DNA from: an uncultured Spirochaetota bacterium
Lineage (GTDB): Bacteria > Spirochaetota > Brevinematia > Brevinematales > JAOACQ01
Direction: 5' to 3'
Length of the DNA: 64,000 nucleotides
NCBI GenBank assembly: GCA_963835575.1
Contig: CAWIGG010000004.1
Location: forward strand, 992,001 to 1,056,000
Shown: piece after piece, positions 21,383-54,512 of the stretch
How the letters are laid out: every line of letters starts with the position of its first letter
Numbering within the stretch: the first letter of the stretch is position 1
Made by a program: the position numbers and the translations under genes
Notes under the pieces: model-generated
What the model was told of the DNA's origin: nothing
Seen by the model: only the letters and a program-made list of their open reading frames with translations
Database searches by the model: none

Positions 21383-21938
21383 TAATTATTCATTAGTCAT
21401 TAAGCTTTACTTGTCCTATGGAAATATTAATTTTGACTGAAGAAATAGAGGTTAGCTGATAGCTGTTGGCTATTAGCGGTTAGCAGGAAACGGTTGGAAG
21501 CTGACAGCTAATAGCTAATTGTTCCCTCCGTTCCCGAGGCCATTTTCCTCCTGGCTTAAATCTGCAAATAAAACATCTCAATTTCAAGGCGTGTTATCCG
21601 CTATTATAATAGAAGACTGAAGTACATGTTTTTGACACGGATGTCAAAACCGACGCATAAAGTCATTGGACGGCGAGATAAGGAGGCTATTTCAATGAGG
21701 GATCGTTTTATAAAACCGGATAACACACATCCATACAAACAGACAGCTTAGTATGAAAATGGCCTCGACCTGTTTTCTTTCTTTAGCGCGATATTTCTTT
21801 CTTTTCGAAAAGAAAGAAATATCGTGATCCCCGATTGCCGGTCGTGGCAAAATAGTTGCCGCCGTTGCCTGTCGGTTTTTATAACATGCTTCATGGACAT
21901 ACGGCAGGGTTCCCGTTAAAATAAAACGGGAGAAAAAG

Positions 21939-33418: not shown

Positions 33419-33581
33419 ATTCTGTTTTTAATGAAGAGAGCATCTTGTTTTTGGAGGTCTGCCGAAAACTGTGCGAGGGCAGGCAGTAAAAGAGAAGACA
33501 AGACACTTGCAATGACAGACATGGCGGCGAGACACTTAGATTAAAGTTTACAATTAAACAAAATAGAGGAGGACACATTTT

Positions 33582-34169
33582 ATGGATTGGAGAAAAACAG
33601 CTTTAGTTACCGTGGTTATGGGGACAATATTGGTGTTATTGACAGTATCATGCGCCTCGGCGCCCGGTGGAAGCGGGAACGGAGGCGGGAGTTCCGGCGG
33701 CCTTGACCTGACCGGTGAATGGTTAGACCCGCAAGTGGATCAAATGACAAACGGAACTATTTATACAAATTACTTTGGAGCTTTTATCGGTGATACTCTT
33801 GAAATAAAGAGCGATAATAATATAAATTTAAAATTTTATAATAATATTGGGTCAATAAATCTTATTTATACGGCGACAAATTACGCTAAAATCGTTGTAG
33901 ATGAAGCCAATAAAACTATTACGCTTTGCGGGAATGGCCTTTTTACGAATATATATATTGATCCATTTGAAACTAATACTAATATCTATTATTTTACCAA
34001 TACTTGGACCTGTACAACAATATCATCTACAACAATTCATATTACGAATGTTGTGAAGAACAGATCTTATTTAATGTATGATGATGTGGCTTCGAATTTT
34101 GTAACTAATTTTAATAGCGTGGGTTATGGAAGCGAATATTTATTTACTGAAGAGGGTAAGCTGCCTTAA
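33582..34169 (+). CDS. Hypothetical lipoprotein
   Basis: Lipobox LTVSC, Gly-rich tether, GGAGG RBS. Confidence 0.75.
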   Translation: MDWRKTALVTVVMGTILVLLTVSCASAPGGSGNGGGSSGGLDLTGEWLDPQVDQMTNGTIYTNYFGAFIGDTLEIKSDNNINLKFYNNIGSINLIYTATNYAKIVVDEANKTITLCGNGLFTNIYIDPFETNTNIYYFTNTWTCTTISSTTIHITNVVKNRSYLMYDDVASNFVTNFNSVGYGSEYLFTEEGKLP

Positions 34170-34232
34170 TTCGAAAAAATTGAATTTTTAACGGAATTGA
34201 GAACGGGTATTACTATAAAGTTTGATTTATGT

Positions 34233-35444
34233 ACAGACAGATTGCTTTGTGCGGAAGCCGACGGCGAGGGAGAAAGCATGGCGCTCGTAATGACGGAGCC
34301 GGTGCGGAGCGGCGGCGTGGAAGTTTTTTTTGCTTGCAATGATGCGGTATGTGCTGAGACGGAGCACAAAAACGTCATTGCGAGAGGAGGGATTTCTGCT
34401 GTGACGAAAGCTGGCGCACGAAGCAATCTGTAAGGAAAAATAGGAGAGTAAAATAAAAGGGAAAGGCGGATATGTGTATATCCTGGCAGCAAAATATAAT
34501 AAATTGCTTTATACCGGTGTAACAAATGATTTGAAAAGAAGGGTATATGAACATAAATCCGGGATTGAAAAAGGATTCTCAAAAAAATACAATGTTAACA
34601 AACTTGTTTACTATGAAAAGTTTGATAGTATCACTCAAGCCATTAGCAGGGAAAAGCAGATAAAAGGCGGCTCAAGGGAAAAGAAGGTTGAGTTAATAGA
34701 GAAGATGAATCCTGGATGGAAAGATATGTATGATGAGTTATAAAGGACTCATTTTGTGCAGACAGATTGCTTCGCACTGGTGTCAGCGGCGAAGGAGACA
34801 GCATGGCGCTCGCAAAGACGCGATATGTGCCGAGAAGGCCGAAAAAGCCACCTTTATGTACAGACAGATTGCTTCGCATGAAGGTCGGCGGCAAAGGAGA
34901 AAGCATGATGCTCGCAATGACACGGTATATGCTGAGACGGAATACCAAAGCCGTCATTGCGAGTGGAGAGATTTCTACTGTGACGAAAGCTGGCGTACGA
35001 AGCAATCTGTAAGGAAAAATAGGAACTTTTATGTATAGACAGATTGCTTCGCGCTGGAATCAGCGGCGGGGGAGACAGCATGACGCTCGCAATGACGCGG
35101 CATTCGCAGAAACGGAGCAAAAAAACGTCATTGCGAGTGGAGGGATTTCTGCTGTGCCGAAAGCTGGCGCACGAAGCAATCTGTCGGCAAAAGAAACAGG
35201 TTTTATATGCAGACAGATTGCTTCGCGCTGGAATCAGCGGCGAGGGAGGCAGCAGGGTGCTCGCAATGACGCGGTATCCGCAGAAACGAAGTACAAAAAC
35301 GTCATTGCGAGGGGACGGATATCTTCCGGGCCGATGGCTGCAATCCGAAGCAATCTGTCGGTAAAAGAAACAGGTATTATATGCAGACAGATTGCTTCGC
35401 GCGGAAGCCGGCGGCGAGGGATCAAGCATGGCGCTCGTAATGAC
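34233..35444. repeat. Cluster of ~10 GTCATTGCGAG...GAAGCAATCT REP-like elements around a GIY-YIG gene
   Basis: ~58-60 bp units in mostly alternating orientation at ~34233, 34374, 34760, 34863, 34953, 35038, 35127, 35212, 35301 and 35385. Confidence 0.88.
34453..34743 (+). CDS. Small GIY-YIG nuclease (REP-associated type). The likely start is ATA at 34453; the ORF track uses GTG at 34474.
   Basis: GYVYIL...LYTGVTNDLKRRVYEHK...AISREKQIKG..R.KK...I...NP.W.D. The AGGAG RBS precedes the in-frame ATA. Confidence 0.85.
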   Translation: MKGKGGYVYILAAKYNKLLYTGVTNDLKRRVYEHKSGIEKGFSKKYNVNKLVYYEKFDSITQAISREKQIKGGSREKKVELIEKMNPGWKDMYDEL

Positions 35445-35484
35445 GGGCGTTGTGCGGAGAAGGGGTTTGACAGGAGTATATTGT

Positions 35485-36510
35485 ATGAATAAACTGTTTA
35501 TTTTATTGTTGACGTTATTATTCATATGCGGTTTTATTTACCCGGGTGAGCTTTTTTTGAAAGGGGACTACTCCTTATACAAGATTTACAGCCTGGAGGG
35601 CGCGTCGGGGCCGTTCCCCCCGTCCAATGCGCCGCTGCTGTTATTTGACGGGAGGAAGGACACGGCCGTGTTTGTCAGCACATACAAATACCCGAAGAGC
35701 TTTTGGGTTGTTTTCGGCAGTCCGGTGGAATTCAGCCGGATAGCCCTTTACGGAGGATTTCAGAAAAGCGGAACGGATTTCTATTATTACGCCCGGCCGA
35801 AGGCGGTGAACATATACTCGTATGATCCGAAGAAAAAGGAGAAGCGCGGGGCGCTCATCACGAACATAGTCATGGAAGACACGATGGGGGGGCAGGCCGT
35901 GGATTTCGAGGGCGTCCTGACCGAACCGGGGCTTGTGTTTGAGGCCGCGTCGTACTATCCCAGCACGAACTGCTCCTGCATAAGCAGGCTCGCATTCAGC
36001 GAGGTCGAGCTGTACTACGGGGATGAAAAATACCGGGTCCTGAATTTTGACGCCGCCTCGAAGGAATACAAAAGGACATGCAGGAATGACAGGCTGAGCG
36101 AGATGAAGGGCTTCTTTTCGGTCCTGAGGAAGGCGGAATTCTTCACCAACGCCGATGCCGTCTTAAGCCTCTGGGGACAGCTGGGAGTAAAGAAAAGCGA
36201 TATTTACATCTATAAACAGGCCGGGATGAACGAAATGGCGATGCTGGAGCTGACGTTCAACGGGGAAGGCGGGTATTCCGGGAAGGTCCTCGCCGGCCGG
36301 AACGGCGGCAGGTTCGTCGAGATCAAAAACAACGGAAGAGCGACGGGGCGTTTTCATCTGGCGGAATCCGTCGAACTGGGAAGCTGGAAGATCGACGAGG
36401 ACGGCGCCATCTGGGTCCAGGCCGGCCGCGGGCCGTGGAAGGCCTGCACCGGGACGGGATATTTTGAGGGTACGGACATCGGGGCGTTTGAAAGCGTGAC
36501 GTACCCGTGA
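35485..36510 (+). CDS. Secreted hypothetical protein, possible discoidin/glycan-binding-like N-terminal domain
   Basis: Signal peptide MNKLFILLLTLLFICGFIYP after an AGGAG RBS. LFDG..DTA, GGFQKS, ARPK and SEVELY motifs. Confidence 0.65.
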   Translation: MNKLFILLLTLLFICGFIYPGELFLKGDYSLYKIYSLEGASGPFPPSNAPLLLFDGRKDTAVFVSTYKYPKSFWVVFGSPVEFSRIALYGGFQKSGTDFYYYARPKAVNIYSYDPKKKEKRGALITNIVMEDTMGGQAVDFEGVLTEPGLVFEAASYYPSTNCSCISRLAFSEVELYYGDEKYRVLNFDAASKEYKRTCRNDRLSEMKGFFSVLRKAEFFTNADAVLSLWGQLGVKKSDIYIYKQAGMNEMAMLELTFNGEGGYSGKVLAGRNGGRFVEIKNNGRATGRFHLAESVELGSWKIDEDGAIWVQAGRGPWKACTGTGYFEGTDIGAFESVTYP

Positions 36511-36511: not shown

Positions 36512-36597
36512 ACCACCCCCGACCCCTCCTCAATGAGGAGGGGAGTCAGGCATATTATATAGCTCCCCTCCTTTTTAAGGAGGGGGTAGGGGTGGTG
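36512..36597. repeat. Inverted doublet of ACCACCCC-CCCCTCC-n-GGAGGGGAG REP-like palindromes upstream of the DUF559 gene
   Basis: accacccccgacccctcctcaatgaggaggggag, then the inverted copy ctcccctcctttttaaggagggggtaggggtggt. Confidence 0.85.
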
Positions 36598-36620: not shown

Positions 36621-37049
36621 ATGAATTTTAAAATTAATAATAGAAAAGAATTAAAAGAAAAGCGCAGATTATTAAGGAATAATTTGACATCAGCAGAAGC
36701 AAAACTATGGAAATATTTGCAAGGGAAAAAGCTGGATGGACGGAAATTCCGCCGTCAGCATAGTGTTGGTTATTATATTCTGGATTTTTATTGTCCGGGT
36801 GAAAAGTTATGTGTGGAATTAGACGGTATGGGACATTGTAGTAATGAAGGCCATGAATATGATATTGTACGAACAGAATATTTGAATAGTTTAAATATAA
36901 AAGTATGCAGAATTGAAAATAAGAGGGTGTTTGAAAATTTAGATGGAGTTTTAATGGAAATAAGCAGTTATTTCAAAACTACTCATGATTCGTCATCAGG
37001 AGAAAATAAGGCAGGTTGTTGTTTGCCGGAGGAATTGAATGAAGAGTAA
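36621..37049 (+). CDS. DUF559 (Vsr-like) endonuclease domain protein
   Basis: LRNNLTSAEAKLWKYL...KFRRQH..GYYILDFYC...VELDG..H motifs. Confidence 0.9.
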   Translation: MNFKINNRKELKEKRRLLRNNLTSAEAKLWKYLQGKKLDGRKFRRQHSVGYYILDFYCPGEKLCVELDGMGHCSNEGHEYDIVRTEYLNSLNIKVCRIENKRVFENLDGVLMEISSYFKTTHDSSSGENKAGCCLPEELNEE

Positions 37050-40000
37050 ATCGCTAGCTGCAGCGCTCTTATTAACGTGTTTTCTTGTTCTTGTCTACGC
37101 GGGGACAAAGATCGCGCTTCAGATAAACGGCAAAAAGGTGGACATCGCGGCTCAGAACGACAGCAGGAACCCGTACCTTTACAATACGCGCCTCAGGGAC
37201 ATACAGGCAAAGCTGAATAAAGTCCTCTCTTTCAACCTGACGAATTACGCGCCGATCGAGGAAAACGGCTTTTATAATAAAGAAACGGAAGCGGCGCTCG
37301 AGCAGTTCCGGGAGATGTACTACAAAAAATACAGCCTCCAGCGCTACTACGCGTTCAGCGCGGAGGATGCCGTGGAGCCTTCGTCTGTTGAAGGACTCCT
37401 GGACCGGGAAATACCGGCGGCGGCGGATTTCGCCCGCGAATACCAGGAGGGGATGAAGCTCAAGAACGGCGACCCTGCGAAGTACTACGGAAATTCCGCG
37501 TGGGACGAGGTCCTCAGGATCGAGAAGGGCATGGACGGCGATACCGTCGATCCCGTAACGGGCGAGCTTTCGAAAACCATACCGCTCTACCAGACGCCGG
37601 CCGGGAACGACCATCTGATGCCGATCCAGCTGACCGCGAGGTACGGATCGCAGTACTCGGGGAACTGCGGCCTGGGCGACAACTGGTACCTGACGGAGAG
37701 CTATTCCCTCTGGTTCAGCTACGAGAAGAACGAGATGATCGTCCAGGACGGGAGCGGCATATCGCAGAAGTTTAATTTTACAAACGGCGGCTTCTCGCGC
37801 GATACGAACAACAATACCGACGGGGGGCTGTTCCTCAATGTTATGCTGGACGGGGCGCTGGGCACGGAAGGCAGTACGATCTGTGTTATAACGGCGAGGG
37901 GCGAAACGATGATATTCGAGTGCGCCGACAACAAAGGCCAGGACTCGGTATCCAATGTCATCGAGTCGATCTCTACAAATAGTCTCGAGGTTTACGGCTA
38001 CTGTATCGTGGAAGACCTGAGGATATATGAAGTGACCAATTATACGAGAGATTTTATGTGGTCATTAAAAACCAATATATCGGTGAGCAATTACGGGCCG
38101 ACCATAAAAATGGGATTGTACGCCGATTCCTCCAATGCCCTGGATATGACTATGACCAACTCGGCATATACCAATTTCAGCGATTGGTTAAATAATGGCC
38201 ATCAGACGGTCACCGGACAGAAAATGATCTGCGATAAGGAGGAATTCAAAAATAAAGTATGGAAATTGAGCGACACGTCCGAGGGCGGATGGAGCGTGAG
38301 CTATTACGCGGCGCCCCTGGCGACTAACGCTATTGAGTTTGTAACAAACTGGATCTGGGGGGGTGCGCCGCTTTCCAACTGCACGCAGTCAGACACAAAT
38401 TTTGACATGCGCGTCAAGGTAAATACAAACATCGTTTACACGCAGGGCACAAGCTATTCCTTCCGGAGACAGCCCATGGGGCAGGCCGGTATTTACGCCG
38501 GCTATGTGCTGACAAATTCGATGAACCGGTTCGGGTCGGTAAAAAGCTACAGTTATGACGGCTTTCAGAAGCTGTTGAGCATCAATTCCTATTCCCCCGG
38601 CGGAACGGAGATAGACGGCGTAAGCATTACCTACTCCCCGGCGGGCGAAAAAGGATTTATCAAAGTGATAACAACCGGGCTTGCGTCCTCCGCGAACGGC
38701 GTCATCACATTCAGCTATACGGGAAACCAGCCCGACCACCAGCTGCTTGATACCGCCGTAGTTATGATGGACGGAAAGGCGGACGCGCACAGGATGGCCT
38801 ATCATTCCGAGCTCCTTTTCGGGCCGGGGTCGCCGGATGGGGTGAAGCTCAGCAATTCGATTTTCAGCAATTACAGCGCGCTGACGAACAGCTTTACCTA
38901 CATAACAAATGAAATATCATTTATAACCAGTAATATAGGGGAATTGGTCCAGCAGAATTATGTCTATTTCTGGGAAATGTACACGAACATTACCGAAACG
39001 ATAACCCATAACGGGATAAATACTACTACAAATATTTCATCGAGTTTGTTCTACGATGATAAATATTATAATAATTCAAAAGACTACTATGACCTTCTTG
39101 TCCAGTTTATGGAAAGCCAGCTGCCCGACCTCATCAGCAATATCAGCAGTCTGACGGACCAGATCTCGAACTACAACAGCGGCGATCTCTTCCCGCGCCT
39201 GGCCCTCCTGGATTCTCATATCGACAGCGCCGGCCCATGGCAGGAGTACCGCTACGGCAGTTTCGACACGAACATGTTCGGCGTCACGAACAGGGAGAGC
39301 GCCTTCAGGACGACCATCGTGCGGAAGCAGGGCGCGGAATGCCGGCTGGATTACTCCGGCGGCTATACGGAGTACCATAATTTCAGCGGCAATACTTTTA
39401 AATTTCATTATGATATAAACCAGACGAATTACGACGAAAGGCATGTGGACCGCATTGTTTACCCGGACAATTCAACCGTATCCTTCGGCTATGATAAGAA
39501 GGGGAATATCACGGCCGTGACGAACGAGATTAATAACGCCTATTCATACGGCTATGACGATTTCGGCAATGTGACGAATAAGAGCATGCCCGGGCGGAAT
39601 TGGTATTATGAATATAACAGCGTGATCGGCAGATACCTGGGCCGCCCGACGAAGATAGTCCAGCCCGACCATACGGTTTACACTATGGCTTATGACGAAA
39701 ACGGTGAAATGACGAACCAGACGCTCAAAGCAAACGATGCGGACCAGGGGAAAACCCTTGTCCAGGTCTTTTTCTCGCCGCTGTCCGCCAACGGGTTTGT
39801 CAAGACAAACAGGGACATGTACGGAAGCGAGACTGTTTACACATACGACGGCAGTCACAGCCCGGTCAGCGTTAAAAATCCCGACGGGGGCGTGACCGCC
39901 TATATTAACGACTCCTTCGGAAAGCCGCTGATCGAGAATAGAAGTAATCTGGTAACAAACATCTGCGTTTATGATTCGAGAGGGAACATCGTCGAGCAGG

Positions 40001-43000
40001 GCATAGCAGGGCTGAACCACAGCTTCACGGAATACGACGCCGCCGGAAGACGCCTGTCCTCGACGGACCCTATGAGCAATAAAACAATCTATGAATACGG
40101 CGCCGGGAACAGCCTCGCCGGGGTCATTTTCCCCTCGGGAGAGGAAGTCCGCTATTCTTACGACGGCGACGGGAACAAAACGAACGAGGCGTATTACGCG
40201 CAGTCCGGCTTTACCATCGCGAATAAAAGCATCGTCTACGCGTACGATCCGGAGTACAGGCTGACGAACAAGGCCCTTGTCCAGGACGGCGAGACGTTCA
40301 ATTATTCCTTCCAGTACGACGCCGCCGGCAATATGACCCTCCAGACGGCTGAAAGCGTTCTGCCGGACGGGAATGTCCCTGCCGGCGTCAGCAACAGCTA
40401 CGCCTACGACGCCATCAGCATCCTGACAAATCAGAGCGATTTAATATCAGGGAAAAACATCTCGTATTATTACGATCCGATGGGAAGGCTGACTTTTGAA
40501 AACCGGACTGTGACGAACGGGAGCGGGTACGGATTTTCATTGTCCAATACATACGACATCCTGGGCCGGAACACGGCAAGTTTTAGTTTCACGAACGGGG
40601 CCGCCGTCATAATGACGTCGAATGACTATCAGGACAATGACCGCGTAACCGTTAAAATCGACCGGTACGGCAATCAGTCCGTGAATTACATGGACTTCCG
40701 CAATAACGTGACGAACCTGCAGTACTCTGTATTCAATCCGCTGACGGAAGAAAATGAGCTTTATACGCATTCCTATATTTACGACACCCTGGGGAATAAA
40801 ACAGAGGAAATATACCCCGACGGCACGCGCCAGAAATGGCAGTTTGTTTTCGGGAACCGGCTTTTAAAGGAAAGCGGCCGGTATTCGGACGAAAGCGCCG
40901 CGGCCTGGAAGACTTACTCCCGCGACGCCGCCGGACGCGTGACGGCCGTCAATGATTTTGAGAATAAAACATGGGGAAAATCATACAACAGCCTGGGCCG
41001 GCTCAGTTCCGAAACCGATCCGGACGGCAGGCAGATTTTTTATATCACGGACCTCTGGGGCAATCCCATGACGGTCCAGCAGGGAAGCCGGCGCAGGGAT
41101 ATTTCCTATAATATCCTCAACAAGCCCGTTACGGTAAACTACGGGGACGGCGCGGCCGACTCCGCCCTTTATGACGCGATGGGGAATGTTGTTCAGTCTA
41201 TGCCCGGCGGAGCGTCCAACCTGCAGACAGTCTCGAGATATGACAACGAGGGGAAAAAGACATATGAAGCCGGCTTCGGCCTCGAAACATACTTCGCCTA
41301 CGACGCGCAGGGAAATTTGATATATAAAAAGGCGGCCACGGCCCCCTCCAACCACCCCCAGCCCCTCCTTAATAAGGAGGGGAGTAGAACTTGGACTTAT
41401 GCGTATGACGCCTGCGGCAGGATTACGGAAGAGCATTTACCGGACGGAACGTTCATCAGCCATGACTATGCCGTTTCGAACGGCCTCCTGATTGAGACCG
41501 TCTCCGGGCCGAAAAGGCATAATACATCCGCCGCGGACACGACGGTCAACACATACGACCAGATGGACCGCCTGATACGCAGCCAGGTCTGCGACGATGG
41601 ACTGGAAGCGGCCTGCGATATCGGCTTCTTCGCCGGGAAGGGGCTTATCTCCGGCAAGGTGTTCGACAGGGCCGGCCTTCCCGTCAAAGAGGTGCGTCCG
41701 GGAAATAAGATAAAGAATTATAAATACTCGCCGGAAGGCCGGGTGACGAACGAGGAAAACGAGGCCGGCGAAGTGAAAAGTTCCGTTTATGATAAAAACG
41801 GTAATCTGACATATATGACGGATTTCGACGGGAACAGCTTCAGCAACACCTATTATAATTCCGGTAAATTAATGAAATCATTAGAGCCGGGCAATGCCGT
41901 CACTTCTTATTATTACGACGCGTACGGGAACATGAATAAGAAAGTACTGCCGGACGGCAGTACATGGCTTTTCGAGACCGACGCGAGGGGAAGGACCGTA
42001 AAGGAAACAAACCCCTTCGGAGGCACCGCGGCGTTCGAGTACGACGCGCTGGGCAGAAAAATGGCCGAAACGGGCCCCGGCGGAAGTTATACCGCCTATG
42101 ATTATGACGGGAACGGAATACCGACGGGCATAGAGACGCAGGGCAACGACGGGGAAAACGCAGTCAAGATTTCAGCTGCTGTGGACGGGTTCGGGGAGAC
42201 GAATAGGGTGGAATACCCAACCACCCCCAGCCCCTCCTCAGGCAAGGAGGGGAGTCAGGGTCTGATTGTAACATATCAATATGATAATATGGGGCGGGTG
42301 ACGAATAAAACAACCACCCCCAACCCCCTCCTTAATAAGGAGGGGAGCAGGACCACACGCTATAAATATAGAGAAGATGGAAGGCTGAAAAGGACGGATA
42401 ATCCGGACGGGACGGCCGAAATGTACGCCTACAGCGCGGCGTGGCTGCTGACGAACAGGACCGTCCTGGGGGATACTAATAAGGGCGATTTGCCGCCGAA
42501 AAGGGTGACGGCGTATTATTACGGCGGGTACGGGGACGGAGACGTACGGCCGTACGTCTCTACGGGAGGGTTCGGCGATGTTGAATGCGCTGTTGATTAC
42601 CGCGGAATTGTCACGGCGTCGTATTACGATAAGGCCGGGCGGCTGACGAACCGCTCCGAAACGGCGGGGACGGAACCGAGGAATACCATAACGATTTACG
42701 GGCTTACTAATATAAATAATCTCTTTTATCGGACAATGGAAACATGGAAAGAGGAGACGCACAGCCGTGCGTCTCTACAGATGGAATGGTCAAAAACCGT
42801 GACTGATTTCAGGGGGAATGTCCTGAAGGTTTACCGGATGGAAAAGGGGCAGGAACTGCTGACGGCCGATAACACATACAACGCGGCGGGAAAATTGGTT
42901 TCTGAGGTCCGGCAGGAGGACCTGGGCAGTCCCGAGACAAGATACGAATACGGCGCGAACGGCGCGCTTTCGAAAAAAACGGAGCCCTCGGGACTGATCA

Positions 43001-46000
43001 CCGAATACAGTTACGACAGCGCGGGAAGGATAACGGAAACGAGGGAGTATCCCGCGGACAATTATTCACAGGCGAGGAAAACGGATTATCAATATCACCA
43101 GAACGGAAGGCTGAAGCGCAAAGTATTGTATGATTTTTCCGGCCCGGCGCTGGAGGACACGTCCTATTCCTACGACTTCCGGGGGAACGTCATTAATAAA
43201 ACGGACAACCTAAGGAATACCGCTTTTATAACTTTTTATAACGCCTACGGCGAGAAAACAGAGGAAAGCACACTCTGGAACGGAGAGTCATCGGACAGGC
43301 ATTACAGCTATGACGCCGCCGGAAGACTTTATCAGACCACCGGCGAACTGGGCAGTGTGACGACTTATACATACGGGGATTTCGGGCAGACGGCGACGAA
43401 GGGGATATCGTACAGAGGAGACGTACAGCCGTACGTCTCTACGAGTTATTTTTATGATTCACGGGGAAATGTAATTACAGAAACCGTATATGGGATGACC
43501 CCCTCCGGCTCCCCCTCAGGCAAGGGGGAGAGCCGGCTATTGTCTTATACCACGAGCTATCAGTACGACGGGTGGGGGAACCGCACAAACACCGTATATC
43601 CCGACGGGAGTTTTGAAACATCCGAATATGACGGGTCCGGGCAGAAGATAAACGAGACCGACAGGTACGGATACCGGACGGCGTATGAATACGATGAGAA
43701 CGGCAGGGAGACAAAACGGACATCCGGCACGCCCAACGGGAACCTGATAACTGAGACAGTTTACGATAATTCCGGGCGGAAGATTTCAGAGACAAGCCAT
43801 GGGGAAACGGGACCCTCAAGGACCGCGCAGTATCAATATGACAGTTCGGGAAGGCTGATCAATCAGCAGATTGGGGACGTGTCATCCTCGACAGGGTACG
43901 ACGCCTTCGGGAATAAAACATGGACAACCACCCCCGGCCCCTCCTTAAATAAGGAGGGGAGCAGTACCTGGTATTACCAGTACGACGCGGCGGGAAGGAC
44001 GACCGTCAGCATCGACGGAGAGGGGAACAGGACGGAGACGAGCTACGGATTTGACGGCGATTGGAGGCTGACGGTAACTACCACCCCCAACCCCTCCTCA
44101 GGCAAGGAGGGGAGCCGGAAAATTATTTATGACGGGTTCGGGAATAAGATTGAGGATGTTGACGCGAACGGGAACAGCGAATATTACCAATATAACGCGG
44201 CCGGCAAGCCGACGGTATATACCGACAGGAACAGCAATCAGACTGTATATATTTATGACTCTCTGGGAAGACAGACCGCGACTGTCGACGCGAACGGGAG
44301 CGTATTGTCGAACGTGTACGACAGCTTTAATAATATAATTGAGGTCGTTGACAAGGAAGGGCGCCATCTTTACAGGGAATTCGACTGGGCGGGAAGGATG
44401 ATATGGACGAAAGACGCCTTAGGTAATGAGGCGAGATACGAATACACAACCACCCCCAAACCCCTCCTTGGCAAGGAGGGGAATCCGCTTGGGTATGAGG
44501 TTGAGGTCTTCACAGACGCGGAGGGGAACAAAGCAACCACATATAAATACGGCAAGATGACGCTGGCTGTTCAGGACGCGCTAGGCAATATCACGAGCTA
44601 TCAATACAACGCCTTCGGCGAATTAACGGCGACGGTCGACCCGAAGGGGAATACGACAAGTCTTACATATGACTTGCGGGGCAACAAAACAGGTGAAACA
44701 ACGGCTTTAGGCTTCAGCACGACATATCAATATGACAATAACGGCAACGTGATAAATGAGATCAACGGCGAGGGCTGGATAAAAACGACATACAACAGGA
44801 ACAACCAGCCAGTGAGAAAAGATTATAGCGATGGAAACACAAAAAACTTCCTCTACGATTCTTTGGGAAGGTTGACAAGAGCGCGGGACAATTTCAGCGA
44901 CTATTCATATCTTTATGATAATAATGGAAGCTTGACTAACAGGTATGATAATATCAATAAAGAGACGCTGGCGTATGAGTATGACGGGAACGGGAACCGC
45001 GTTAAAATGACTGCTCAAGATAAGATTGTAAATTATGATTATGACGCTTTAAATCAAATTAAGAAAGAAACGGTATTAACCACGAAGATCACGAAGGACA
45101 CGAAGGAAGAAATTAATGTGGCCTCCGGCTTCATAACGAACCTTTCAATTGATTACAGTTATTCTCCTATGGGGAGGGTCACGAATAAGACATATTCTTC
45201 GGGGCTGGTCGTCAATTATGAATATGACCCTATTTACAGGCTGATGAAAATAAACAACACGACCAATGGATTGTTTTTATCATCGTTCGGGTATACATAC
45301 GACAAAGTGGGGAACAGGACAAAGGAAACGGCCCGCGAATCCACGCGAATAGGCACGAATGGGGATGGTTCGGCCTCCGGCGGGGAACGGGTGTCGGCGT
45401 TTCTTTATGATAAGGCGTACAGGCTTGTCAAGGCCGATTATAGTGAAGGTAAGTTCGAGGAATTCGAATACGACAATTCAGGTAACCGGCTAAGGAAGAC
45501 TTCAAATTTAGACGGCTCTAATACCGTTACGACCGGCTATGTCATCGACAACGACAACAGACTCCTCTGCGAACAGAAGCCTTCCGGCAATATCAGCTTT
45601 ATTTATGACCGCGCTGGACGGATTATCAAGAAAGTAGAAGGGGATAAAGTAGAACGCTATCAGTACAACCAGCGCGACTTGATGACGAAGTACACCGTCG
45701 AGCAGAACGGCAGTATCACTTCCGTAAGTGAATACACCTACGACATCAACAACCTCCGCACCGTTAAGAAAGAAACCCCTGAGACGCCGGGAAGTGTCGG
45801 AGATAACACAACACGCTTTACCTATGACGGAGACAATATATTATATGAAGGCCCGTCTTTTTATTTGAATAACATCTTTATCAATAGTTACGAAGCGGAA
45901 ATACAGCCGCTGAGGACGGCGGTCTATGTAAAGGACGCGCTGGGAAGCGTGAGGGGCGAAATCTACGACAACCCGCTCCCGCCTGTAGAGTCTGGCGGCT

Positions 46001-47847
46001 CTGGAATCGCGCTGAAAGAATTTAATTATACCGCCTTCGGGGAAATGCTGGCTATAGGCGATCAGATTGCAATAGACAACGATGCTAAAAAAGGCATTTC
46101 TTATACTGGACATTATTTTGATAAAGACACAAAATTATACTATGCCCGCGCCCGCTACTACGATCCGGGCATAGGGCGGTTTATTACAAGTGATCCGATT
46201 CAAGACCCATCGAAGAGATATGCTCCCGCCGGGCTGAACAGGTATGTTTACGGAGATAACTCGCCTCTGCGTTATATCGACCCTGAAGGCCAATTCGGGT
46301 TGGACGATCTCATAGCAGGAATCGTGGGCGGAATTATCGGAGCGATCAGTAATGTTATTGCTGATATAGCCAGCGGGGACTATAAGGACATTCTTCTTGA
46401 TTCCATACTCGGCAGTACGGCTGGATTTATAAACGGCGTGGTGGAGCATTATGGAATACCGATGTATATATCGTTCAACACAAGGGGATTCGGCGCCGGA
46501 GTGGGCTACAACTTAGGCGGGGTTGTCAGCGTCGGCGCGGGAATTCATTCAGACTGGAGCGGACAGAATTACGGTTTCAGCGTAAACGCCGGACTTGGCG
46601 GTGTTGATAAGTACAAAGGCCTTAGTCTGGGATTCTCGGCGGGCATTGACTACGGCCCTGAAGGCCAGAAGAGCTACTTCGGGTTTAACGCCGGCGCAGG
46701 ATCGATTAATTTCGGCGCTAACTGGAATTATGTTAACGGGCAATACGCCGGTTTCGGGGTTAACGGCGGTTTTGGCGGGGACATCGGTAAAGGTTATTCA
46801 CTCGGACTTAACCTTGGAGCGAACTTTGACGCGAAGGGCAATTACTCAGGCGGCAGCGCAGGAATAAATATCGGGTATAATGAGAGGATTAAAGATTCAA
46901 AGGATTCAATGCAGTATAACGGAAGTCTGGGCATAAATTTCAGCGCGGACGGAAAAGTAACTCCTTACGCTAATTTTACCGCGACGAGGTGTATTAATAT
47001 TCAGAAGAATGCTGAAACGGGGAAGAAAGCCGGGAATAAGACGGCTAACGAAATTGAAATGGAGCGGCAGGGCTTGCAGCGGGATATGGCCGAGAGAATG
47101 AAAACAACTGTAATGAGTATGGAAGCCGGGATGGAAAGACCGGAAACGCCGGGAATGATGGTAATCGGCCAGAGTGTGAACGATGCCAATGACAACCAGA
47201 CTGCGGGCGATGCGATGACTGCCGGGAACGAGAAAGTGGCGGCGGCGAAAGCGGCGTATAATCAGGAAAAACAGCAGGCTATTCAGAACGGGACGCTGGG
47301 GCAATTCTATAAACGGGAAATGCTTGAAAATCTTACTTTTAACCAGGATACAGGATATTGGGTAACAACAATAGACGGGCAGACAATAAATATCGGCAGA
47401 ACAAATATTGATTTAGATTTCAGCACAACCGCAACCTATACTTTAGATCAAAGTAAGGAACATATCTACACGGTTGTTTCAAATATGACTGATGATGCAA
47501 TTATTGGGTTTGCCAACTTCACAAACCATAATGAAGGCTTCGTTGTTACCAGCATGTGGCGAAATACTAATGATCCTCATGGTCATGGGACTGCTTTTGA
47601 TATGGTATTCGGAAATAACACACCTGTTTATGCGGCTGAAGGTGGTATAGTAACTACTGCTGGGAATTATGGAGGAGCCGGAATTATGATTACAATTAGC
47701 GGGACAGATAATTTAAAATACACTTATATGCACAACAATCAGCTATACTATAGTGTAAATGCAAATGTTGATGCTGGGAATAAAATTTCTTTATCGGGTG
47801 GTACGCCAAATTATGCGCCACATTTACATTTCCAAATTGGTAGATAA
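37039..47847 (+). CDS. Secreted Rhs/YD-repeat polymorphic toxin (3602 aa) with C-terminal M23-like peptidase
   Basis: Signal peptide, PG-binding-like N-domain, GDTVDPVTGEL, many YD repeats, core end NSPLRYIDPEG (DPEG at 46279-46290), Gly-rich linker, and C-terminal PVYAAEGG...YMH...PHLHFQI. Confidence 0.92.
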   Translation: MKSKSLAAALLLTCFLVLVYAGTKIALQINGKKVDIAAQNDSRNPYLYNTRLRDIQAKLNKVLSFNLTNYAPIEENGFYNKETEAALEQFREMYYKKYSLQRYYAFSAEDAVEPSSVEGLLDREIPAAADFAREYQEGMKLKNGDPAKYYGNSAWDEVLRIEKGMDGDTVDPVTGELSKTIPLYQTPAGNDHLMPIQLTARYGSQYSGNCGLGDNWYLTESYSLWFSYEKNEMIVQDGSGISQKFNFTNGGFSRDTNNNTDGGLFLNVMLDGALGTEGSTICVITARGETMIFECADNKGQDSVSNVIESISTNSLEVYGYCIVEDLRIYEVTNYTRDFMWSLKTNISVSNYGPTIKMGLYADSSNALDMTMTNSAYTNFSDWLNNGHQTVTGQKMICDKEEFKNKVWKLSDTSEGGWSVSYYAAPLATNAIEFVTNWIWGGAPLSNCTQSDTNFDMRVKVNTNIVYTQGTSYSFRRQPMGQAGIYAGYVLTNSMNRFGSVKSYSYDGFQKLLSINSYSPGGTEIDGVSITYSPAGEKGFIKVITTGLASSANGVITFSYTGNQPDHQLLDTAVVMMDGKADAHRMAYHSELLFGPGSPDGVKLSNSIFSNYSALTNSFTYITNEISFITSNIGELVQQNYVYFWEMYTNITETITHNGINTTTNISSSLFYDDKYYNNSKDYYDLLVQFMESQLPDLISNISSLTDQISNYNSGDLFPRLALLDSHIDSAGPWQEYRYGSFDTNMFGVTNRESAFRTTIVRKQGAECRLDYSGGYTEYHNFSGNTFKFHYDINQTNYDERHVDRIVYPDNSTVSFGYDKKGNITAVTNEINNAYSYGYDDFGNVTNKSMPGRNWYYEYNSVIGRYLGRPTKIVQPDHTVYTMAYDENGEMTNQTLKANDADQGKTLVQVFFSPLSANGFVKTNRDMYGSETVYTYDGSHSPVSVKNPDGGVTAYINDSFGKPLIENRSNLVTNICVYDSRGNIVEQGIAGLNHSFTEYDAAGRRLSSTDPMSNKTIYEYGAGNSLAGVIFPSGEEVRYSYDGDGNKTNEAYYAQSGFTIANKSIVYAYDPEYRLTNKALVQDGETFNYSFQYDAAGNMTLQTAESVLPDGNVPAGVSNSYAYDAISILTNQSDLISGKNISYYYDPMGRLTFENRTVTNGSGYGFSLSNTYDILGRNTASFSFTNGAAVIMTSNDYQDNDRVTVKIDRYGNQSVNYMDFRNNVTNLQYSVFNPLTEENELYTHSYIYDTLGNKTEEIYPDGTRQKWQFVFGNRLLKESGRYSDESAAAWKTYSRDAAGRVTAVNDFENKTWGKSYNSLGRLSSETDPDGRQIFYITDLWGNPMTVQQGSRRRDISYNILNKPVTVNYGDGAADSALYDAMGNVVQSMPGGASNLQTVSRYDNEGKKTYEAGFGLETYFAYDAQGNLIYKKAATAPSNHPQPLLNKEGSRTWTYAYDACGRITEEHLPDGTFISHDYAVSNGLLIETVSGPKRHNTSAADTTVNTYDQMDRLIRSQVCDDGLEAACDIGFFAGKGLISGKVFDRAGLPVKEVRPGNKIKNYKYSPEGRVTNEENEAGEVKSSVYDKNGNLTYMTDFDGNSFSNTYYNSGKLMKSLEPGNAVTSYYYDAYGNMNKKVLPDGSTWLFETDARGRTVKETNPFGGTAAFEYDALGRKMAETGPGGSYTAYDYDGNGIPTGIETQGNDGENAVKISAAVDGFGETNRVEYPTTPSPSSGKEGSQGLIVTYQYDNMGRVTNKTTTPNPLLNKEGSRTTRYKYREDGRLKRTDNPDGTAEMYAYSAAWLLTNRTVLGDTNKGDLPPKRVTAYYYGGYGDGDVRPYVSTGGFGDVECAVDYRGIVTASYYDKAGRLTNRSETAGTEPRNTITIYGLTNINNLFYRTMETWKEETHSRASLQMEWSKTVTDFRGNVLKVYRMEKGQELLTADNTYNAAGKLVSEVRQEDLGSPETRYEYGANGALSKKTEPSGLITEYSYDSAGRITETREYPADNYSQARKTDYQYHQNGRLKRKVLYDFSGPALEDTSYSYDFRGNVINKTDNLRNTAFITFYNAYGEKTEESTLWNGESSDRHYSYDAAGRLYQTTGELGSVTTYTYGDFGQTATKGISYRGDVQPYVSTSYFYDSRGNVITETVYGMTPSGSPSGKGESRLLSYTTSYQYDGWGNRTNTVYPDGSFETSEYDGSGQKINETDRYGYRTAYEYDENGRETKRTSGTPNGNLITETVYDNSGRKISETSHGETGPSRTAQYQYDSSGRLINQQIGDVSSSTGYDAFGNKTWTTTPGPSLNKEGSSTWYYQYDAAGRTTVSIDGEGNRTETSYGFDGDWRLTVTTTPNPSSGKEGSRKIIYDGFGNKIEDVDANGNSEYYQYNAAGKPTVYTDRNSNQTVYIYDSLGRQTATVDANGSVLSNVYDSFNNIIEVVDKEGRHLYREFDWAGRMIWTKDALGNEARYEYTTTPKPLLGKEGNPLGYEVEVFTDAEGNKATTYKYGKMTLAVQDALGNITSYQYNAFGELTATVDPKGNTTSLTYDLRGNKTGETTALGFSTTYQYDNNGNVINEINGEGWIKTTYNRNNQPVRKDYSDGNTKNFLYDSLGRLTRARDNFSDYSYLYDNNGSLTNRYDNINKETLAYEYDGNGNRVKMTAQDKIVNYDYDALNQIKKETVLTTKITKDTKEEINVASGFITNLSIDYSYSPMGRVTNKTYSSGLVVNYEYDPIYRLMKINNTTNGLFLSSFGYTYDKVGNRTKETARESTRIGTNGDGSASGGERVSAFLYDKAYRLVKADYSEGKFEEFEYDNSGNRLRKTSNLDGSNTVTTGYVIDNDNRLLCEQKPSGNISFIYDRAGRIIKKVEGDKVERYQYNQRDLMTKYTVEQNGSITSVSEYTYDINNLRTVKKETPETPGSVGDNTTRFTYDGDNILYEGPSFYLNNIFINSYEAEIQPLRTAVYVKDALGSVRGEIYDNPLPPVESGGSGIALKEFNYTAFGEMLAIGDQIAIDNDAKKGISYTGHYFDKDTKLYYARARYYDPGIGRFITSDPIQDPSKRYAPAGLNRYVYGDNSPLRYIDPEGQFGLDDLIAGIVGGIIGAISNVIADIASGDYKDILLDSILGSTAGFINGVVEHYGIPMYISFNTRGFGAGVGYNLGGVVSVGAGIHSDWSGQNYGFSVNAGLGGVDKYKGLSLGFSAGIDYGPEGQKSYFGFNAGAGSINFGANWNYVNGQYAGFGVNGGFGGDIGKGYSLGLNLGANFDAKGNYSGGSAGINIGYNERIKDSKDSMQYNGSLGINFSADGKVTPYANFTATRCINIQKNAETGKKAGNKTANEIEMERQGLQRDMAERMKTTVMSMEAGMERPETPGMMVIGQSVNDANDNQTAGDAMTAGNEKVAAAKAAYNQEKQQAIQNGTLGQFYKREMLENLTFNQDTGYWVTTIDGQTINIGRTNIDLDFSTTATYTLDQSKEHIYTVVSNMTDDAIIGFANFTNHNEGFVVTSMWRNTNDPHGHGTAFDMVFGNNTPVYAAEGGIVTTAGNYGGAGIMITISGTDNLKYTYMHNNQLYYSVNANVDAGNKISLSGGTPNYAPHLHFQIGR

Positions 47848-47863
47848 TGGGAGGATACCTTTA

Positions 47864-48628
47864 ATGAAACACTTTCTAATTTTTTGCCTGATTTTTATTT
47901 TTGCCGAATTGTACAGCCAAGTCAAGTTAAATGTGGTAGCAAAGACAGGTTTGTTTTTGAGAGATAAAGCAGATAAAAATGGAAAGATATTAACTCAAGT
48001 TCCCTATGGTTCTTCTGTGGATGTAATCAAAAAAGACAGAAAATTTACATTTGATAATATTAATGGTAATTGGGTATTTGTTGAGTACAACAAATTAAAA
48101 GGTTATATTTTTAGTGGTTATTTGTCTGACTTGCCTGCACCAATCATAAATAGTAGCATTAAGGACTATTTTATAAAGCAGATAAAAGTTGAAAAAGTTA
48201 TTAGCTCCAACTTTATTATTTACAATGAAACCAATCATTATACGAATGCCAGTTATGTAACCGTGCTTTTTGGATATGATATTGTCCAAGATTATGTGGA
48301 TGCGGGAATTAAAGAAGGAGAATACGAAGCGGGATTGTATTATAGCACATATTTGTTCAAAAAAAGAAAAATAGAGGAAGTTTTTGTTGTCTTAAAAGCT
48401 CTGGGGTTTTGTAAATACATTGACTATTTTCCAATAAGTACAATTAATTTTCCTCAAAAAGATAAAGAAAGGTATTTAATTGATAAAATTCAAGTGAAGC
48501 GTAAAAGTAATAGGATTGAAGAAATCAAGGTAATTGATTATCCCATGTCAGGTCATAGAGTTATCCAAACTTTAAAGGTTACAAACAATAATGATGTGGT
48601 GTATATTTGGGACGAGTATGGAGATTAG
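47864..48628 (+). CDS. SH3b-domain secreted protein, probable cognate immunity protein
   Basis: Signal peptide MKHFLIFCLIFIFAELYSQ and GLFLRDKA...VPYG...NWVFVEY...GYIFSGYLS. Immediately follows the Rhs gene, with GGAGG RBS. Confidence 0.75.
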   Translation: MKHFLIFCLIFIFAELYSQVKLNVVAKTGLFLRDKADKNGKILTQVPYGSSVDVIKKDRKFTFDNINGNWVFVEYNKLKGYIFSGYLSDLPAPIINSSIKDYFIKQIKVEKVISSNFIIYNETNHYTNASYVTVLFGYDIVQDYVDAGIKEGEYEAGLYYSTYLFKKRKIEEVFVVLKALGFCKYIDYFPISTINFPQKDKERYLIDKIQVKRKSNRIEEIKVIDYPMSGHRVIQTLKVTNNNDVVYIWDEYGD

Positions 48629-48924
48629 GAAAAACAAAAGATTGAAAGCCCGTAGTGGCTACTTTCAATTTTTCAAGTAAGAAATTATAAATGAAAGGGG
48701 AAATAAAGTAAAAAAGAGCGGCAGAAAGGAGAGCAAGCGGAGGGGGTTAAGCCGGTTTCCGGACGGGAATCGGTAAAACCGGATGCTTCAGGTCGCAGGC
48801 TGGACGGAGCCGGTTGATAAGACAGACTGAAGTAAAACGGATGAAGAAGCACGAAGCGATCCGGCGGTTTATGAAGGATTATTTTGACATCCGGGTGAAG
48901 GATTGAGATTATTAAAGACAGATA

Positions 48925-48960
48925 GAAGCCCCGCCGGTAGTTCCGGCGGGGCTTTTTTGT
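48925..48960 (+). terminator. Intrinsic terminator
   Basis: aagccccgccgg-tagtt-ccggcggggcttttttgt. Confidence 0.8.
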
Positions 48961-49044
48961 CATCTCCCCGGCTGGATCGCGCTGATCCGGCTGACCGGGT
49001 TGGCCGGATCGGGAGAAACCGGCGGCTTCTATAGTCCGGATGAT

Positions 49045-52329: not shown

Positions 52330-54512
52330 TCCTCTATAAATAAAAAAAGCGACGGTTTAGCCATCGCCCATTTCCCCACTCTCACCTCAATGATAAGAAC
52401 ATAAGCCCCTTGATCTGAAAGCAATAAATAATATCCCGATGCAATGGTTTTGTCAAATCATCCGGACTATAGAAGCCGCCGGTTTCTCCCGATCCGGCCA
52501 ACCGGATCAGCGCGATCCAGCCGGGGAGATGACAAAAAATCCCCGCCGGAATGCCAGCGGGGCTTCTATCTGTCTTTAATAATCTCAATCCTTCACCTGG
52601 ATATCGAAATAATCCTTCATAAACCGCCGGATCGCTTCGTGCTTCTTCATCCGTTTTACTTCAGTCTGTCTTATCAACCGGCTCCGTCCAGCCTGCGACC
52701 TGAAGCATCCGGTTTTACCGATTCCCGTCCGGAAACCGGCTTAACCCCCTCCGCTTGCTCTCCTTTCTGCCGCTCTTTTTTACTTTATTTCCCCTTTCAT
52801 TTATAATTTCTTACTTGAAAAATTGAAAGTAGCCACTACGGGCTTTCAATCTTTTGTTTTTCCTAATCTCCATACTCGTCCCAAATATACACCACATCAT
52901 TATTGTTTGTAACCTTTAAAGTTTGGATAACTCTATGACCTGACATGGGATAATCAATTACCTTGATTTCTTCAATCCTATTACTTTTACGCTTCACTTG
53001 AATTTTATCAATTAAATACCTTTCTTTATCTTTTTGAGGAAAATTAATTGTACTTATTGGAAAATAGTCAATGTATTTACAAAACCCCAGAGCTTTTAAG
53101 ACAACAAAAACTTCCTCTATTTTTCTTTTTTTGAACAAATATGTGCTATAATACAATCCCGCTTCGTATTCTCCTTCTTTAATTCCCGCATCCACATAAT
53201 CTTGGACAATATCATATCCAAAAAGCACGGTTACATAACTGGCATTCGTATAATGATTGGTTTCATTGTAAATAATAAAGTTGGAGCTAATAACTTTTTC
53301 AACTTTTATCTGCTTTATAAAATAGTCCTTAATGCTACTATTTATGATTGGTGCAGGCAAGTCAGACAAATAACCACTAAAAATATAACCTTTTAATTTG
53401 TTGTACTCAACAAATACCCAATTACCATTAATATTATCAAATGTAAATTTTCTGTCTTTTTTGATTACATCCACAGAAGAACCATAGGGAACTTGAGTTA
53501 ATATCTTTCCATTTTTATCTGCTTTATCTCTCAAAAACAAACCTGTCTTTGCTACCACATTTAACTTGACTTGGCTGTACAATTCGGCAAAAATAAAAAT
53601 CAGGCAAAAAATTAGAAAGTGTTTCATTAAAGGTATCCTCCCATTATCTACCAATTTGGAAATGTAAATGTGGCGCATAATTTGGCGTACCACCCGATAA
53701 AGAAATTTTATTCCCAGCATCAACATTTGCATTTACACTATAGTATAGCTGATTGTTGTGCATATAAGTGTATTTTAAATTATCTGTCCCGCTAATTGTA
53801 ATCATAATTCCGGCTCCTCCATAATTCCCAGCAGTAGTTACTATACCACCTTCAGCCGCATAAACAGGTGTGTTATTTCCGAATACCATATCAAAAGCAG
53901 TCCCATGACCATGAGGATCATTAGTATTTCGCCACATGCTGGTAACAACGAAGCCTTCATTATGGTTTGTGAAGTTGGCAAACCCAATAATTGCATCATC
54001 AGTCATATTTGAAACAACCGTGTAGATATGTTCCTTACTTTGATCTAAAGTATAGGTTGCGGTTGTGCTGAAATCTAAATCAATATTTGTTCTGCCGATA
54101 TTTATTGTCTGCCCGTCTATTGTTGTTACCCAATATCCTGTATCCTGGTTAAAAGTAAGATTTTCAAGCATTTCCCGTTTATAGAATTGCCCCAGCGTCC
54201 CGTTCTGAATAGCCTGCTGTTTTTCCTGATTATACGCCGCTTTCGCCGCCGCCACTTTCTCGTTCCCGGCAGTCATCGCATCGCCCGCAGTCTGGTTGTC
54301 ATTGGCATCGTTCACACTCTGGCCGATTACCATCATTCCCGGCGTTTCCGGTCTTTCCATCCCGGCTTCCATACTCATTACAGTTGTTTTCATTCTCTCG
54401 GCCATATCCCGCTGCAAGCCCTGCCGCTCCATTTCAATTTCGTTAGCCGTCTTATTCCCGGCTTTCTTCCCCGTTTCAGCATTCTTCTGAATATTAATAC
54501 ACCTCGTCGCGG
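52330..54512 (-). repeat. Right arm of ~2.2 kb inverted duplication
   Basis: Reverse complement of 46979-49171. Confidence 0.95.
52863..53627 (-). CDS. Identical second copy of the SH3b probable immunity protein
   Basis: Translation identical to 47864-48628. Confidence 0.75.
   Translation of the reverse strand: MKHFLIFCLIFIFAELYSQVKLNVVAKTGLFLRDKADKNGKILTQVPYGSSVDVIKKDRKFTFDNINGNWVFVEYNKLKGYIFSGYLSDLPAPIINSSIKDYFIKQIKVEKVISSNFIIYNETNHYTNASYVTVLFGYDIVQDYVDAGIKEGEYEAGLYYSTYLFKKRKIEEVFVVLKALGFCKYIDYFPISTINFPQKDKERYLIDKIQVKRKSNRIEEIKVIDYPMSGHRVIQTLKVTNNNDVVYIWDEYGD

What the first reader, a model, noticed from the sequence alone, without database searches (positions are those of the whole stretch)
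41351..44482. Seven DUF559-type REP palindromes inserted in-frame inside the Rhs coding sequence
Seen: the repeat found intergenically at 36512-36597 recurs at ~41351, 42220, 42313, 43497 (variant), 43927, 44080 and 44449 within the open 3602-aa frame. All copies have one orientation and encode NHPQPLLNKEGS, TTPSPSSGKEGS, TTPNPLLNKEGS, TPSGSPSGKGES, TTPGPSLNKEGS, TTPNPSSGKEGS and TTPKPLLGKEGN, between YD strands. Known: Rickettsia palindromic elements insert in-frame into genes. Inference: the Rhs shell loops tolerate or recruit selfish repeats, possibly spread by the adjacent DUF559 nuclease, creating new peptide loops and internal recombination points.
Basis: partly seen in the sequence, partly recalled or inferred. 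Interest (0 to 1): 0.8.

Follow-up and report, generated by a model that had tools for sequence, protein, structure and literature searches.

The report
Selfish repeats crowd Rhs toxin loops
A giant secreted toxin-container gene of a spirochaete has recently gained a dozen tiny DNA repeats of three unrelated kinds as extra surface loops, including seven of the genome's ten copies of a hairpin that also flanks the small nuclease gene next door, and relatives fill the same loops with other repeats, which makes it a good place to test how such repeats spread.

Summary
Observation confirmed. Seven copies of a 34-35-nt C-rich/G-rich hairpin lie in the intact 3602-codon Rhs/YD gene, in one orientation. 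They are 7 of 10 copies in the genome, about 255 times the intergenic density, and none lies in 2.46 Mb of other gene interiors. No homolog has them at the same site (9-11 per site; one is 73% identical). An AlphaFold model (pLDDT 85.5) places six in loops between strands directly; the seventh lies outside it. Several replace native loop residues. Relatives fill the same loops with other repeat families; one has 277- and 209-codon stop-free pile-ups. The hairpin has BoxC-like triplex architecture and flanks both DUF559 genes of the genome; this scan found the DUF559-hairpin link before on other DNA. Tolerance alone cannot explain enrichment over intergenic DNA, so local copying is inferred. 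A relative with a GIY-YIG cassette in the same upstream slot has GIY-YIG repeats in its Rhs, but there are counter-examples. Nuclease action and expression are unshown. New variant of Rickettsia-type coding palindromes.

The parts
37039..47847 (+). Rhs/YD-repeat gene, 3602 aa: hydrophobic N-terminus (signal-peptide-like, by eye), YD shell about aa 800-3085, DPxG motif at aa 3081, C-terminal M23 peptidase
   Evidence: PF05593, PF01551; TIGR01643, TIGR03696; Foldseek to solved Rhs cores
36621..37049 (+). DUF559 (Vsr-like PD-(D/E)xK nuclease family) gene, 142 aa, overlapping the Rhs start by 11 nt; repeat pair upstream, no hairpin downstream
   Evidence: (PF04480, E 5e-30)
36512..36545 (+). Intergenic type-A hairpin, first unit of the inverted pair; the 7 nt that follow it equal the loop 7-mer of three coding copies
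36563..36596 (-). Intergenic type-A hairpin, second unit of the inverted pair
41351..41384 (+). Coding copy 1 (aa 1438), 34 nt; loop 3-11 residues longer than in 9 homologs; outside the folded model
42220..42254 (+). Coding copy 2 (aa 1728): clean 12-residue insertion against 10 of 10 homologs
42313..42347 (+). Coding copy 3 (aa 1759); G006 and G009 carry other repeat families in this loop
43498..43532 (+). Coding copy 4 (aa 2154), subtype A2; mostly replaces native loop (+5 against most homologs); same subtype in other loops of G005 and G009
43927..43961 (+). Coding copy 5 (aa 2297); absent from 73%-identical P0124; net +7; supplies the turn glycine
44080..44114 (+). Coding copy 6 (aa 2348); replacement, net +2 against P0124
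44449..44483 (+). Coding copy 7 (aa 2471); P0124 has a GTAG-type peptide here, L172 a heptamer array, G009 an 831-nt pile-up
42539..42563 (-). GTAG-type REP in frame (aa 1834); GTAG end on the - strand
42754..42778 (-). GTAG-type REP in frame (aa 1906)
43418..43442 (-). GTAG-type REP in frame (aa 2127)
45081..45104 (+). Heptamer array (CRCGAA family, which brackets GxxExxY genes) in frame at aa 2681; loop +15 against P0124
45334..45359 (+). Heptamer array in frame at aa 2766; shared with the two orphan Rhs modules of this genome
35392..36510 (+). 372-aa partner gene (NADase-type glycan-binding domain, below cut-off), syntenic upstream of the Rhs in all five relative loci read

Best explanation
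The loops of this Rhs shell act as landing pads for miniature repeats, and the DUF559-type hairpin was amplified locally. Shown: the gene is an intact YD shell; the elements are recent, lie in loops, keep the frame and share one orientation; the hairpin is the end-piece of DUF559 cassettes; 7 of 10 genome copies are in this gene. Inferred: (1) the cassette just upstream, or the first copy in the gene, served as donor; (2) copies were written into nearby DNA by short-patch, element-bounded synthesis (template switching at a nick or a stalled fork, favoured by the triplex-forming strand and possibly started by the cis-acting DUF559 nuclease), often overwriting native loop codons; (3) purifying selection kept only in-frame events in loops, in the orientation that gives a polar Pro/Gly-rich peptide whose tail can stand in for the native YD turn. 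The new loops are probably near neutral.
For: Density 255 times intergenic for type A (binomial P 6e-13, copies not independent), 18 times for GTAG, 1.5 times for heptamers; 0 hairpins in 2.46 Mb of other gene interiors. G000 has the highest count (9 strict matches) among 301 genomes of the phylum; 294 have none. Three of 7 coding copies have a loop 7-mer equal to the 7 nt after the upstream intergenic copy, seen in 0 of 198 outside copies; one also shares that 3' flank, seen in 4 of 198. Both DUF559 genes of the genome are flanked by this family (the second by divergent copies read by eye), and 6 of 142 outside loci have DUF559 within 9-142 nt. Parallel: G009 has a GIY-YIG cassette in the same upstream slot, and of its 11 strict GIY-type repeats 5 are in the cassette and 4 in the Rhs, all four in one orientation. 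G017 has a clean slot and a clean Rhs. All 11 hairpins found by one scan in Rhs cores of three genomes have the same orientation. G009 loops hold 831 and 627 nt without a stop (0 and 4 of 20000 shuffles).
Against: No enzyme activity is shown. G000 has a GIY-YIG cassette one gene further upstream and 157 pattern matches of that family genome-wide, yet none in its Rhs. G009 has at least three hairpins in its Rhs but its DUF559 genes are on other contigs (genome 57% complete). In L172 the upstream repeats and the loop inserts are of different kinds. The 3175-aa Ig-domain gene 3-13 kb upstream and Rhs aa 1-1437, nearest the nuclease, have no copy. The GTAG copies have no RAYT nearby. 136 of 142 outside loci lack a DUF559 in the DNA held (45 of them under 1.5 kb). 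The frame bias holds within G000 only; G009 uses other frames.
Confidence: 0.5

Rival explanations
1. Enzyme-free hot locus. The repetitive YD-coding DNA breaks and recombines often; repair captures whatever structured small repeats the genome holds, and loop-to-loop gene conversion multiplies them. The DUF559 cassette is only another passenger of the same hot spot.
For: Many unrelated families use the same loops. The upstream slot holds different elements in each genome. One pair of copies (aa 1438 and 2297) shares 3' flank: 64 nt at 83%, rank 1 of 2249 for a 36-nt flank. The GTAG-type peptide at aa 2127 recurs at another loop in P0124. Triplex motifs stop polymerase in vitro and sit in variable regions in E. 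coli (PMC4666352, passages).
Against: Most flank comparisons show no shared flank; mean identity 0.33 against 0.28 for random in-frame pairs. The abundant GIY and heptamer families are not enriched, while the rare family next door is. 69 distant Rhs loci (142 kb of YD-coding DNA) have no such hairpin.
Confidence: 0.27
2. Selected diversification. Loop inserts change the outer surface of a secreted antibacterial container (receptor, protease or phage contact), and selection favours them; the upstream nuclease slot works as a local mutator.
For: The same loops change independently in many lineages; two strains (L172, L173) differ in copy number of 15-nt units in three loops; enrichment far exceeds intergenic DNA.
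Against: G017, P0004, P0125 and P0129 show no or few recognisable inserts and are intact. The peptides converge on no function. G009's gene with pile-ups also has three frame breaks. No fitness data.
Confidence: 0.12
3. The gene came from a donor genome rich in this repeat and brought the copies along.
For: Three of four same-genus genomes have no match and one has only C-terminal modules, so the locus is patchy. The family is common in other phyla.
Against: The locus is syntenic across the family and order. No genome among 301 of the phylum has more than 5 strict copies apart from G000. A repeat-rich donor would still need 7 hits in 7 kb.
Confidence: 0.07
4. Ordinary protein repeat or assembly artefact.
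For: No reads could be laid on the stretch, so the assembly is unchecked.
Against: Homologs lack the peptides; synonymous sites are invariant; the copies differ from each other in loop and linker; the same DNA occurs intergenically and in other phyla; the ORF stays open through 12 inserts.
Confidence: 0.02

Closest known systems
Rickettsia palindromic elements (RPE) and intragenic GTAG/CGTC REPs (as summarised in PMC10969869 and PMC3733652; passages read; the Ogata papers were not held)
   Same: Palindromic repeats read in frame inside apparently working genes, proposed to sit in loops; Di Nocera et al. report single and double REP inserts per gene in Opitutus terrae and R. conorii.
   Different: RPEs are about 150 bp and spread over unrelated genes. 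Here 12 elements of three families sit in one gene, which holds most genome copies of one family, and the same loops are refilled independently across a clade. No Rhs gene is in that paper's supplementary list of intragenic REPs (4 files searched).
BoxC / PIT / TM-ECO intrastrand-triplex repeat (PMC4666352; passages read)
   Same: Three-block purine-type triplex architecture on one strand, about 35 nt, single or inverted pairs, wide phylogenetic spread.
   Different: The strict TM-ECO consensus is not met (0 of 9). TM-ECO is always intergenic in E. coli K-12, and the paper has no mention of DUF559 or an endonuclease.
REP/REPIN with RAYT transposase (PMC3116915, PMC3733652; passages read)
   Same: A small nuclease gene flanked by its own repeat; repeat clusters beside the gene; inverted doublets. 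The three GTAG copies are of this kind.
   Different: The partner of the hairpin is a Vsr-like PD-(D/E)xK protein, not an HUH tyrosine transposase; no GTAG end; mobilisation untested.
Rhs/YD polymorphic toxins (solved cores 8qja, 7q97, 7pq5; bioRxiv 2024.02.26.582050, passages read)
   Same: Beta-hairpin shell, DPxG motif, variable C-terminus, orphan modules downstream; loop lengths differ between solved cores.
   Different: About twice as long a shell, no PAAR or VgrG match, M23 peptidase tip. Known Rhs variation is C-terminal exchange, whereas here the shell loops vary by repeat capture.

Membership tests
RPE-like coding palindromes | Palindromic DNA repeat also found outside genes | tested here: met
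   3 intergenic copies in the genome; 126 of 144 outside matches not inside a reading frame of 200 aa or more
RPE-like coding palindromes | In frame, absent from homologs at the same site | tested here: met
   0 of 9-11 homologs per site carry it
RPE-like coding palindromes | Located in loops of the protein | tested here: met
   six hairpin and three GTAG sites in coil between strands (one GTAG site runs into a strand); aa 1438 by alignment only
RPE-like coding palindromes | Dispersed over many unrelated genes; about 100-150 bp | tested here: not met
   34-35 nt; all coding copies in one gene
RPE-like coding palindromes | Host gene expressed with the insert | not testable with these tools
   no sequencing run was available
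BoxC/PIT/TM-ECO | Three-block antiparallel purine triplex with short loops | tested here: met
   perfect 8-triplet motif in 9 of 9 window copies (sequence rule only)
BoxC/PIT/TM-ECO | TM-ECO consensus sequence | tested here: not met
   0 of 9
BoxC/PIT/TM-ECO | Triplex forms in vitro | not testable with these tools
   needs CD, NMR or DMS footprint
REP/REPIN-RAYT (for the hairpin) | GTAG or CGTC end and a RAYT partner | tested here: not met
   partner is DUF559; no GTAG end
REP/REPIN-RAYT (for the three GTAG copies) | GTAG end plus palindrome, same family flanking a RAYT gene | tested here: met
   family lies in and beside the Y1_Tnp gene at C2:500549
MITE | Terminal inverted repeats and target-site duplication | tested here: not met
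   asymmetric ends, no duplicated flank seen by eye; loop residues often lost
Rhs/YD polymorphic toxin | YD shell, Rhs-associated core, DPxG motif, variable tip, orphan modules | tested here: met
Rhs/YD polymorphic toxin | Toxic activity neutralised by the downstream immunity gene | not testable with these tools
   M23 tip and downstream SH3 gene only annotated

The most novel reading that the evidence does not exclude
The slot just upstream of this Rhs clade holds exchangeable mini-cassettes (DUF559, GIY-YIG) whose nucleases act in cis to write their own end-repeats into the downstream gene's loop-coding DNA. This would be a local, nuclease-driven diversifier of a secreted toxin shell and the first direct link of DUF559 and stand-alone GIY-YIG proteins to repeat mobility.
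Probability: 0.15. Interest if true: 0.85.

Novelty: new variant of a known kind. Interest (0 to 1): 0.62.

Why it matters
How BoxC-like hairpins and similar tiny repeats move is an old open question, and what DUF559 does beside them is unknown. This locus gives filled and empty sites at known loops, a candidate enzyme next door, and a natural swap of cassette type in a relative, so cis-mobilisation can be tested directly. It also shows Rhs shells varying in their loops, not only at the toxin tip, and suggests that single loops can take 200-280 extra residues, which bears on how YD and teneurin-type shells gain domains.

Tried and rejected
Sequencing runs: none was listed and no RNA holder was listed; this is no evidence on expression, and no reads were laid. 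Single-sequence AlphaFold gave pLDDT 35 and was discarded. A 13-mer scan of the gene against the genome was too noisy and its output was cut. The loose 8-nt GIY pattern gave 60 chance hits in control genes, so only the strict pattern was counted. Rfam gave only sub-threshold miRNA matches. YD-unit duplication carrying the element was rejected as the main route: one pair of 14 flank tests is suggestive, and YD phase inflates it. A peptide-level scan of 243 YD proteins found the signature in the query (6 of its 7 copies) and P0003, plus 2 weak hits elsewhere that were not checked as DNA. The promoter scan was uninformative. Gene calls for the census come from my own hexamer caller (3664 genes, 83% coding), so densities are approximate. 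Dropped rows: G000's own loci were left out of the outside census; G009 was used only up to aa 2400 in the alignment; for P0124, P0125, P0129, P0131, P0004 and P0015 only proteins were available, so their repeat calls rest on peptides. Ogata 2002 and Elhai 2008 were not held. Searches without a paper on repeats in Rhs loops or on DUF559 with such repeats; most subscription journals and bioRxiv supplements are not covered. Taxonomy was not tested directly: spirochaete rests for the partner gene, Brevinematales-like on an unchecked scan note.
Full report
Observation. The window is G000:C4:992001-1056000 of a 4.39-Mb, 94% complete genome. ORF 37039-47847 encodes 3602 aa with YD repeats, an Rhs-associated core, a DPxG motif at aa 3081 and an M23 peptidase tip. 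A DUF559 gene (36621-37049) overlaps its start and is preceded by an inverted pair of hairpin units that folds far better than shuffles (z -5.7). Six canonical copies and one variant lie in the ORF in one orientation; shuffles give none. Stems and the third block are invariant, including synonymous positions, while loop and linker vary.

Census. With my own gene calls the type-A family has 10 copies: 7 in this gene and 3 intergenic. Two more divergent copies flank the second, broken DUF559 gene (by eye). Related hairpin types B and C have 10 and 2 copies, all intergenic. A broader scan found 7 hairpins in 6.9 kb of the YD core and 0 in 2.46 Mb of other gene interiors. Density against 750 kb of intergenic DNA is 255-fold, or 153-fold with the divergent copies. 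The ORF also has 3 GTAG-REP copies (18 intergenic; 18-fold) and 2 heptamer arrays (147 intergenic; 1.5-fold). Outside this gene and RAYT-like ORFs, in-frame GTAG copies were seen in a TPR protein and an SH3 protein. Intergenic DNA is freer than any loop, so tolerance alone cannot give this pattern; this is my inference.

Homologs. Full or partial relatives came from G005, G006, G009, G017, G004, L172/L173 and the protein sets, at 32-73% identity over the aligned core. None has the hairpin peptide at the same site (9-11 homologs per site). At aa 1728 all 10 are exactly 12 residues shorter. P0124 (73%) covers three sites and lacks all three: net +7 at aa 2297, net +2 at aa 2348, and a GTAG-type peptide at aa 2471. 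So the copies are recent and several overwrite native residues.

Structure. A 30-sequence AlphaFold model of aa 1690-2560 has mean pLDDT 85.5 and pTM 0.78 and matches solved Rhs cores (E 1e-32). The six hairpin and three GTAG sites inside it fall in coil between strands, mostly at the local confidence minima; one GTAG site runs into the next strand. Most are at the variable turn, two (aa 1834, 2471) at the YD turn, read from the sequence. Inside versus outside of the shell was not determined.

Clade-wide pattern. At DNA level G005, G006 and G009 carry GIY-YIG-type, TTCGRC-type, GTAG-like and triplex hairpins in loops, often the same loops (aa 1759, 1905, 2120, 2255, 2471, 2659, 2743, 2765). 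L172/L173 have 15-nt tandem units that differ in number between the two strains and a heptamer array at aa 2471. G009 has repeat-rich stretches of 831 nt at aa 2471 and 627 nt at aa 2680 with no stop in the Rhs frame and 5-15 stops in the others. Its gene also has three frame breaks, so it may be decaying or mis-assembled. G017 is clean. Distant Rhs genes mostly lack this: 0 hairpins in 69 loci, and one shared TTCGRC-type insert before the first YD repeat in five related loci.

What the hairpin is. On the minus strand 9 of 9 window copies satisfy a perfect 8-triplet purine-type intrastrand triplex rule, but none matches the E. coli TM-ECO/BoxC consensus (PMC4666352, passages). The BoxC lead came from earlier scan notes. 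In G000 the other families also bracket small nuclease genes: heptamers at 7 of 9 GxxExxY matches, GTAG at 1 of 2 Y1_Tnp matches, GIY repeats at 1 of 4 GIY-YIG matches. DUF559 is grouped with Vsr (PMC3424549, passages).

Mechanism. For a local source: the rarest family is the most enriched; three copies carry as loop the 7 nt that follow the upstream copy (0 of 198 elsewhere); no genome among 301 of the phylum is richer; and G009, with a GIY-YIG cassette in the same slot, has 9 of its 11 strict GIY repeats in that cassette and the Rhs. Against a simple cis rule: G000's GIY cassette one gene upstream left no copy; G009 has hairpins without an adjacent DUF559; L172 does not match; the nearest 4 kb of the Rhs and the Ig-domain gene are empty. 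Similarity between copies ends at the element except for one pair, so the element, not the YD unit, is what is copied. I put local element-bounded copying filtered by selection at 0.5, an enzyme-free hot locus at 0.27, selected diversification at 0.12, import at 0.07.

Novelty. In-frame palindromes are known from Rickettsia and from REP surveys (PMC10969869, PMC3733652; passages and four supplementary files). This scan has noted DUF559-linked in-frame hairpins in at least 22 genomes (unchecked notes) and single small inserts in rhs genes. I found no paper on Rhs loops as recurrent multi-family sinks or on an upstream cassette slot. Verdict: real, a new variant of a known kind, interest 0.62.

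Noticed in passing
window 46979-48998 and 52494-55098 (-); G000:C4:1061809-1064454: An inverted orphan copy of the Rhs C-terminus plus the SH3 gene (92% identical over 2.5 kb), and a second orphan module with another tip beyond the window. Between them lie two inverted copies of a primase plus two tyrosine recombinase genes. This could be an inversion or exchange system for toxin tips.
   Followed up: no
window 34227-35471: GIY-YIG gene (about 34468-34683) in an array of GIY-type repeats with 174-nt spacing.
   Followed up: partly
L010:13780-14610 and 15276-15902 (G009): Two stop-free pile-ups of mixed repeats (277 and 209 codons) in Rhs loops; they share long stretches with each other; the gene has three frame breaks nearby.
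   Followed up: partly
L172:4127-12145 and L173:4187-12163: Two strains differ in copy number of 15-nt palindromic tandem units in three Rhs loops; the family was not characterised.
   Followed up: partly
G000:C5:410121-410348: A Y1_Tnp (RAYT-like) domain lies inside a 1208-codon open frame, suggesting an in-frame insertion of a whole cassette.
   Followed up: no
L019:3-1853 (G005) and L067:979-2130: DUF559 flanked by the hairpin lies in one open frame with a DegT aminotransferase and with a type ISP restriction domain.
   Followed up: no
G000:C4:798766-801689 and C2:499558-500496: A TPR protein with two in-frame GTAG REPs, a neighbour ending in heptamer arrays, and an SH3 protein with one GTAG REP next to the RAYT gene.
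   Followed up: partly
window 20519-21516: A Gp49/HTH toxin-antitoxin-like pair (20752-21382) bracketed by short-period repeats of another family.
   Followed up: no
window 23891-36510: A 3175-aa subtilase/Ig-repeat gene and the 372-aa glycan-binding-domain gene precede the Rhs; the 372-aa gene is conserved in all five relative loci read, suggesting a secretion or display module without PAAR or VgrG matches.
   Followed up: partly
L182, L194, L198, L203, L208: Related distant Rhs genes share one in-frame TTCGRC-type element just before the first YD repeat.
   Followed up: partly
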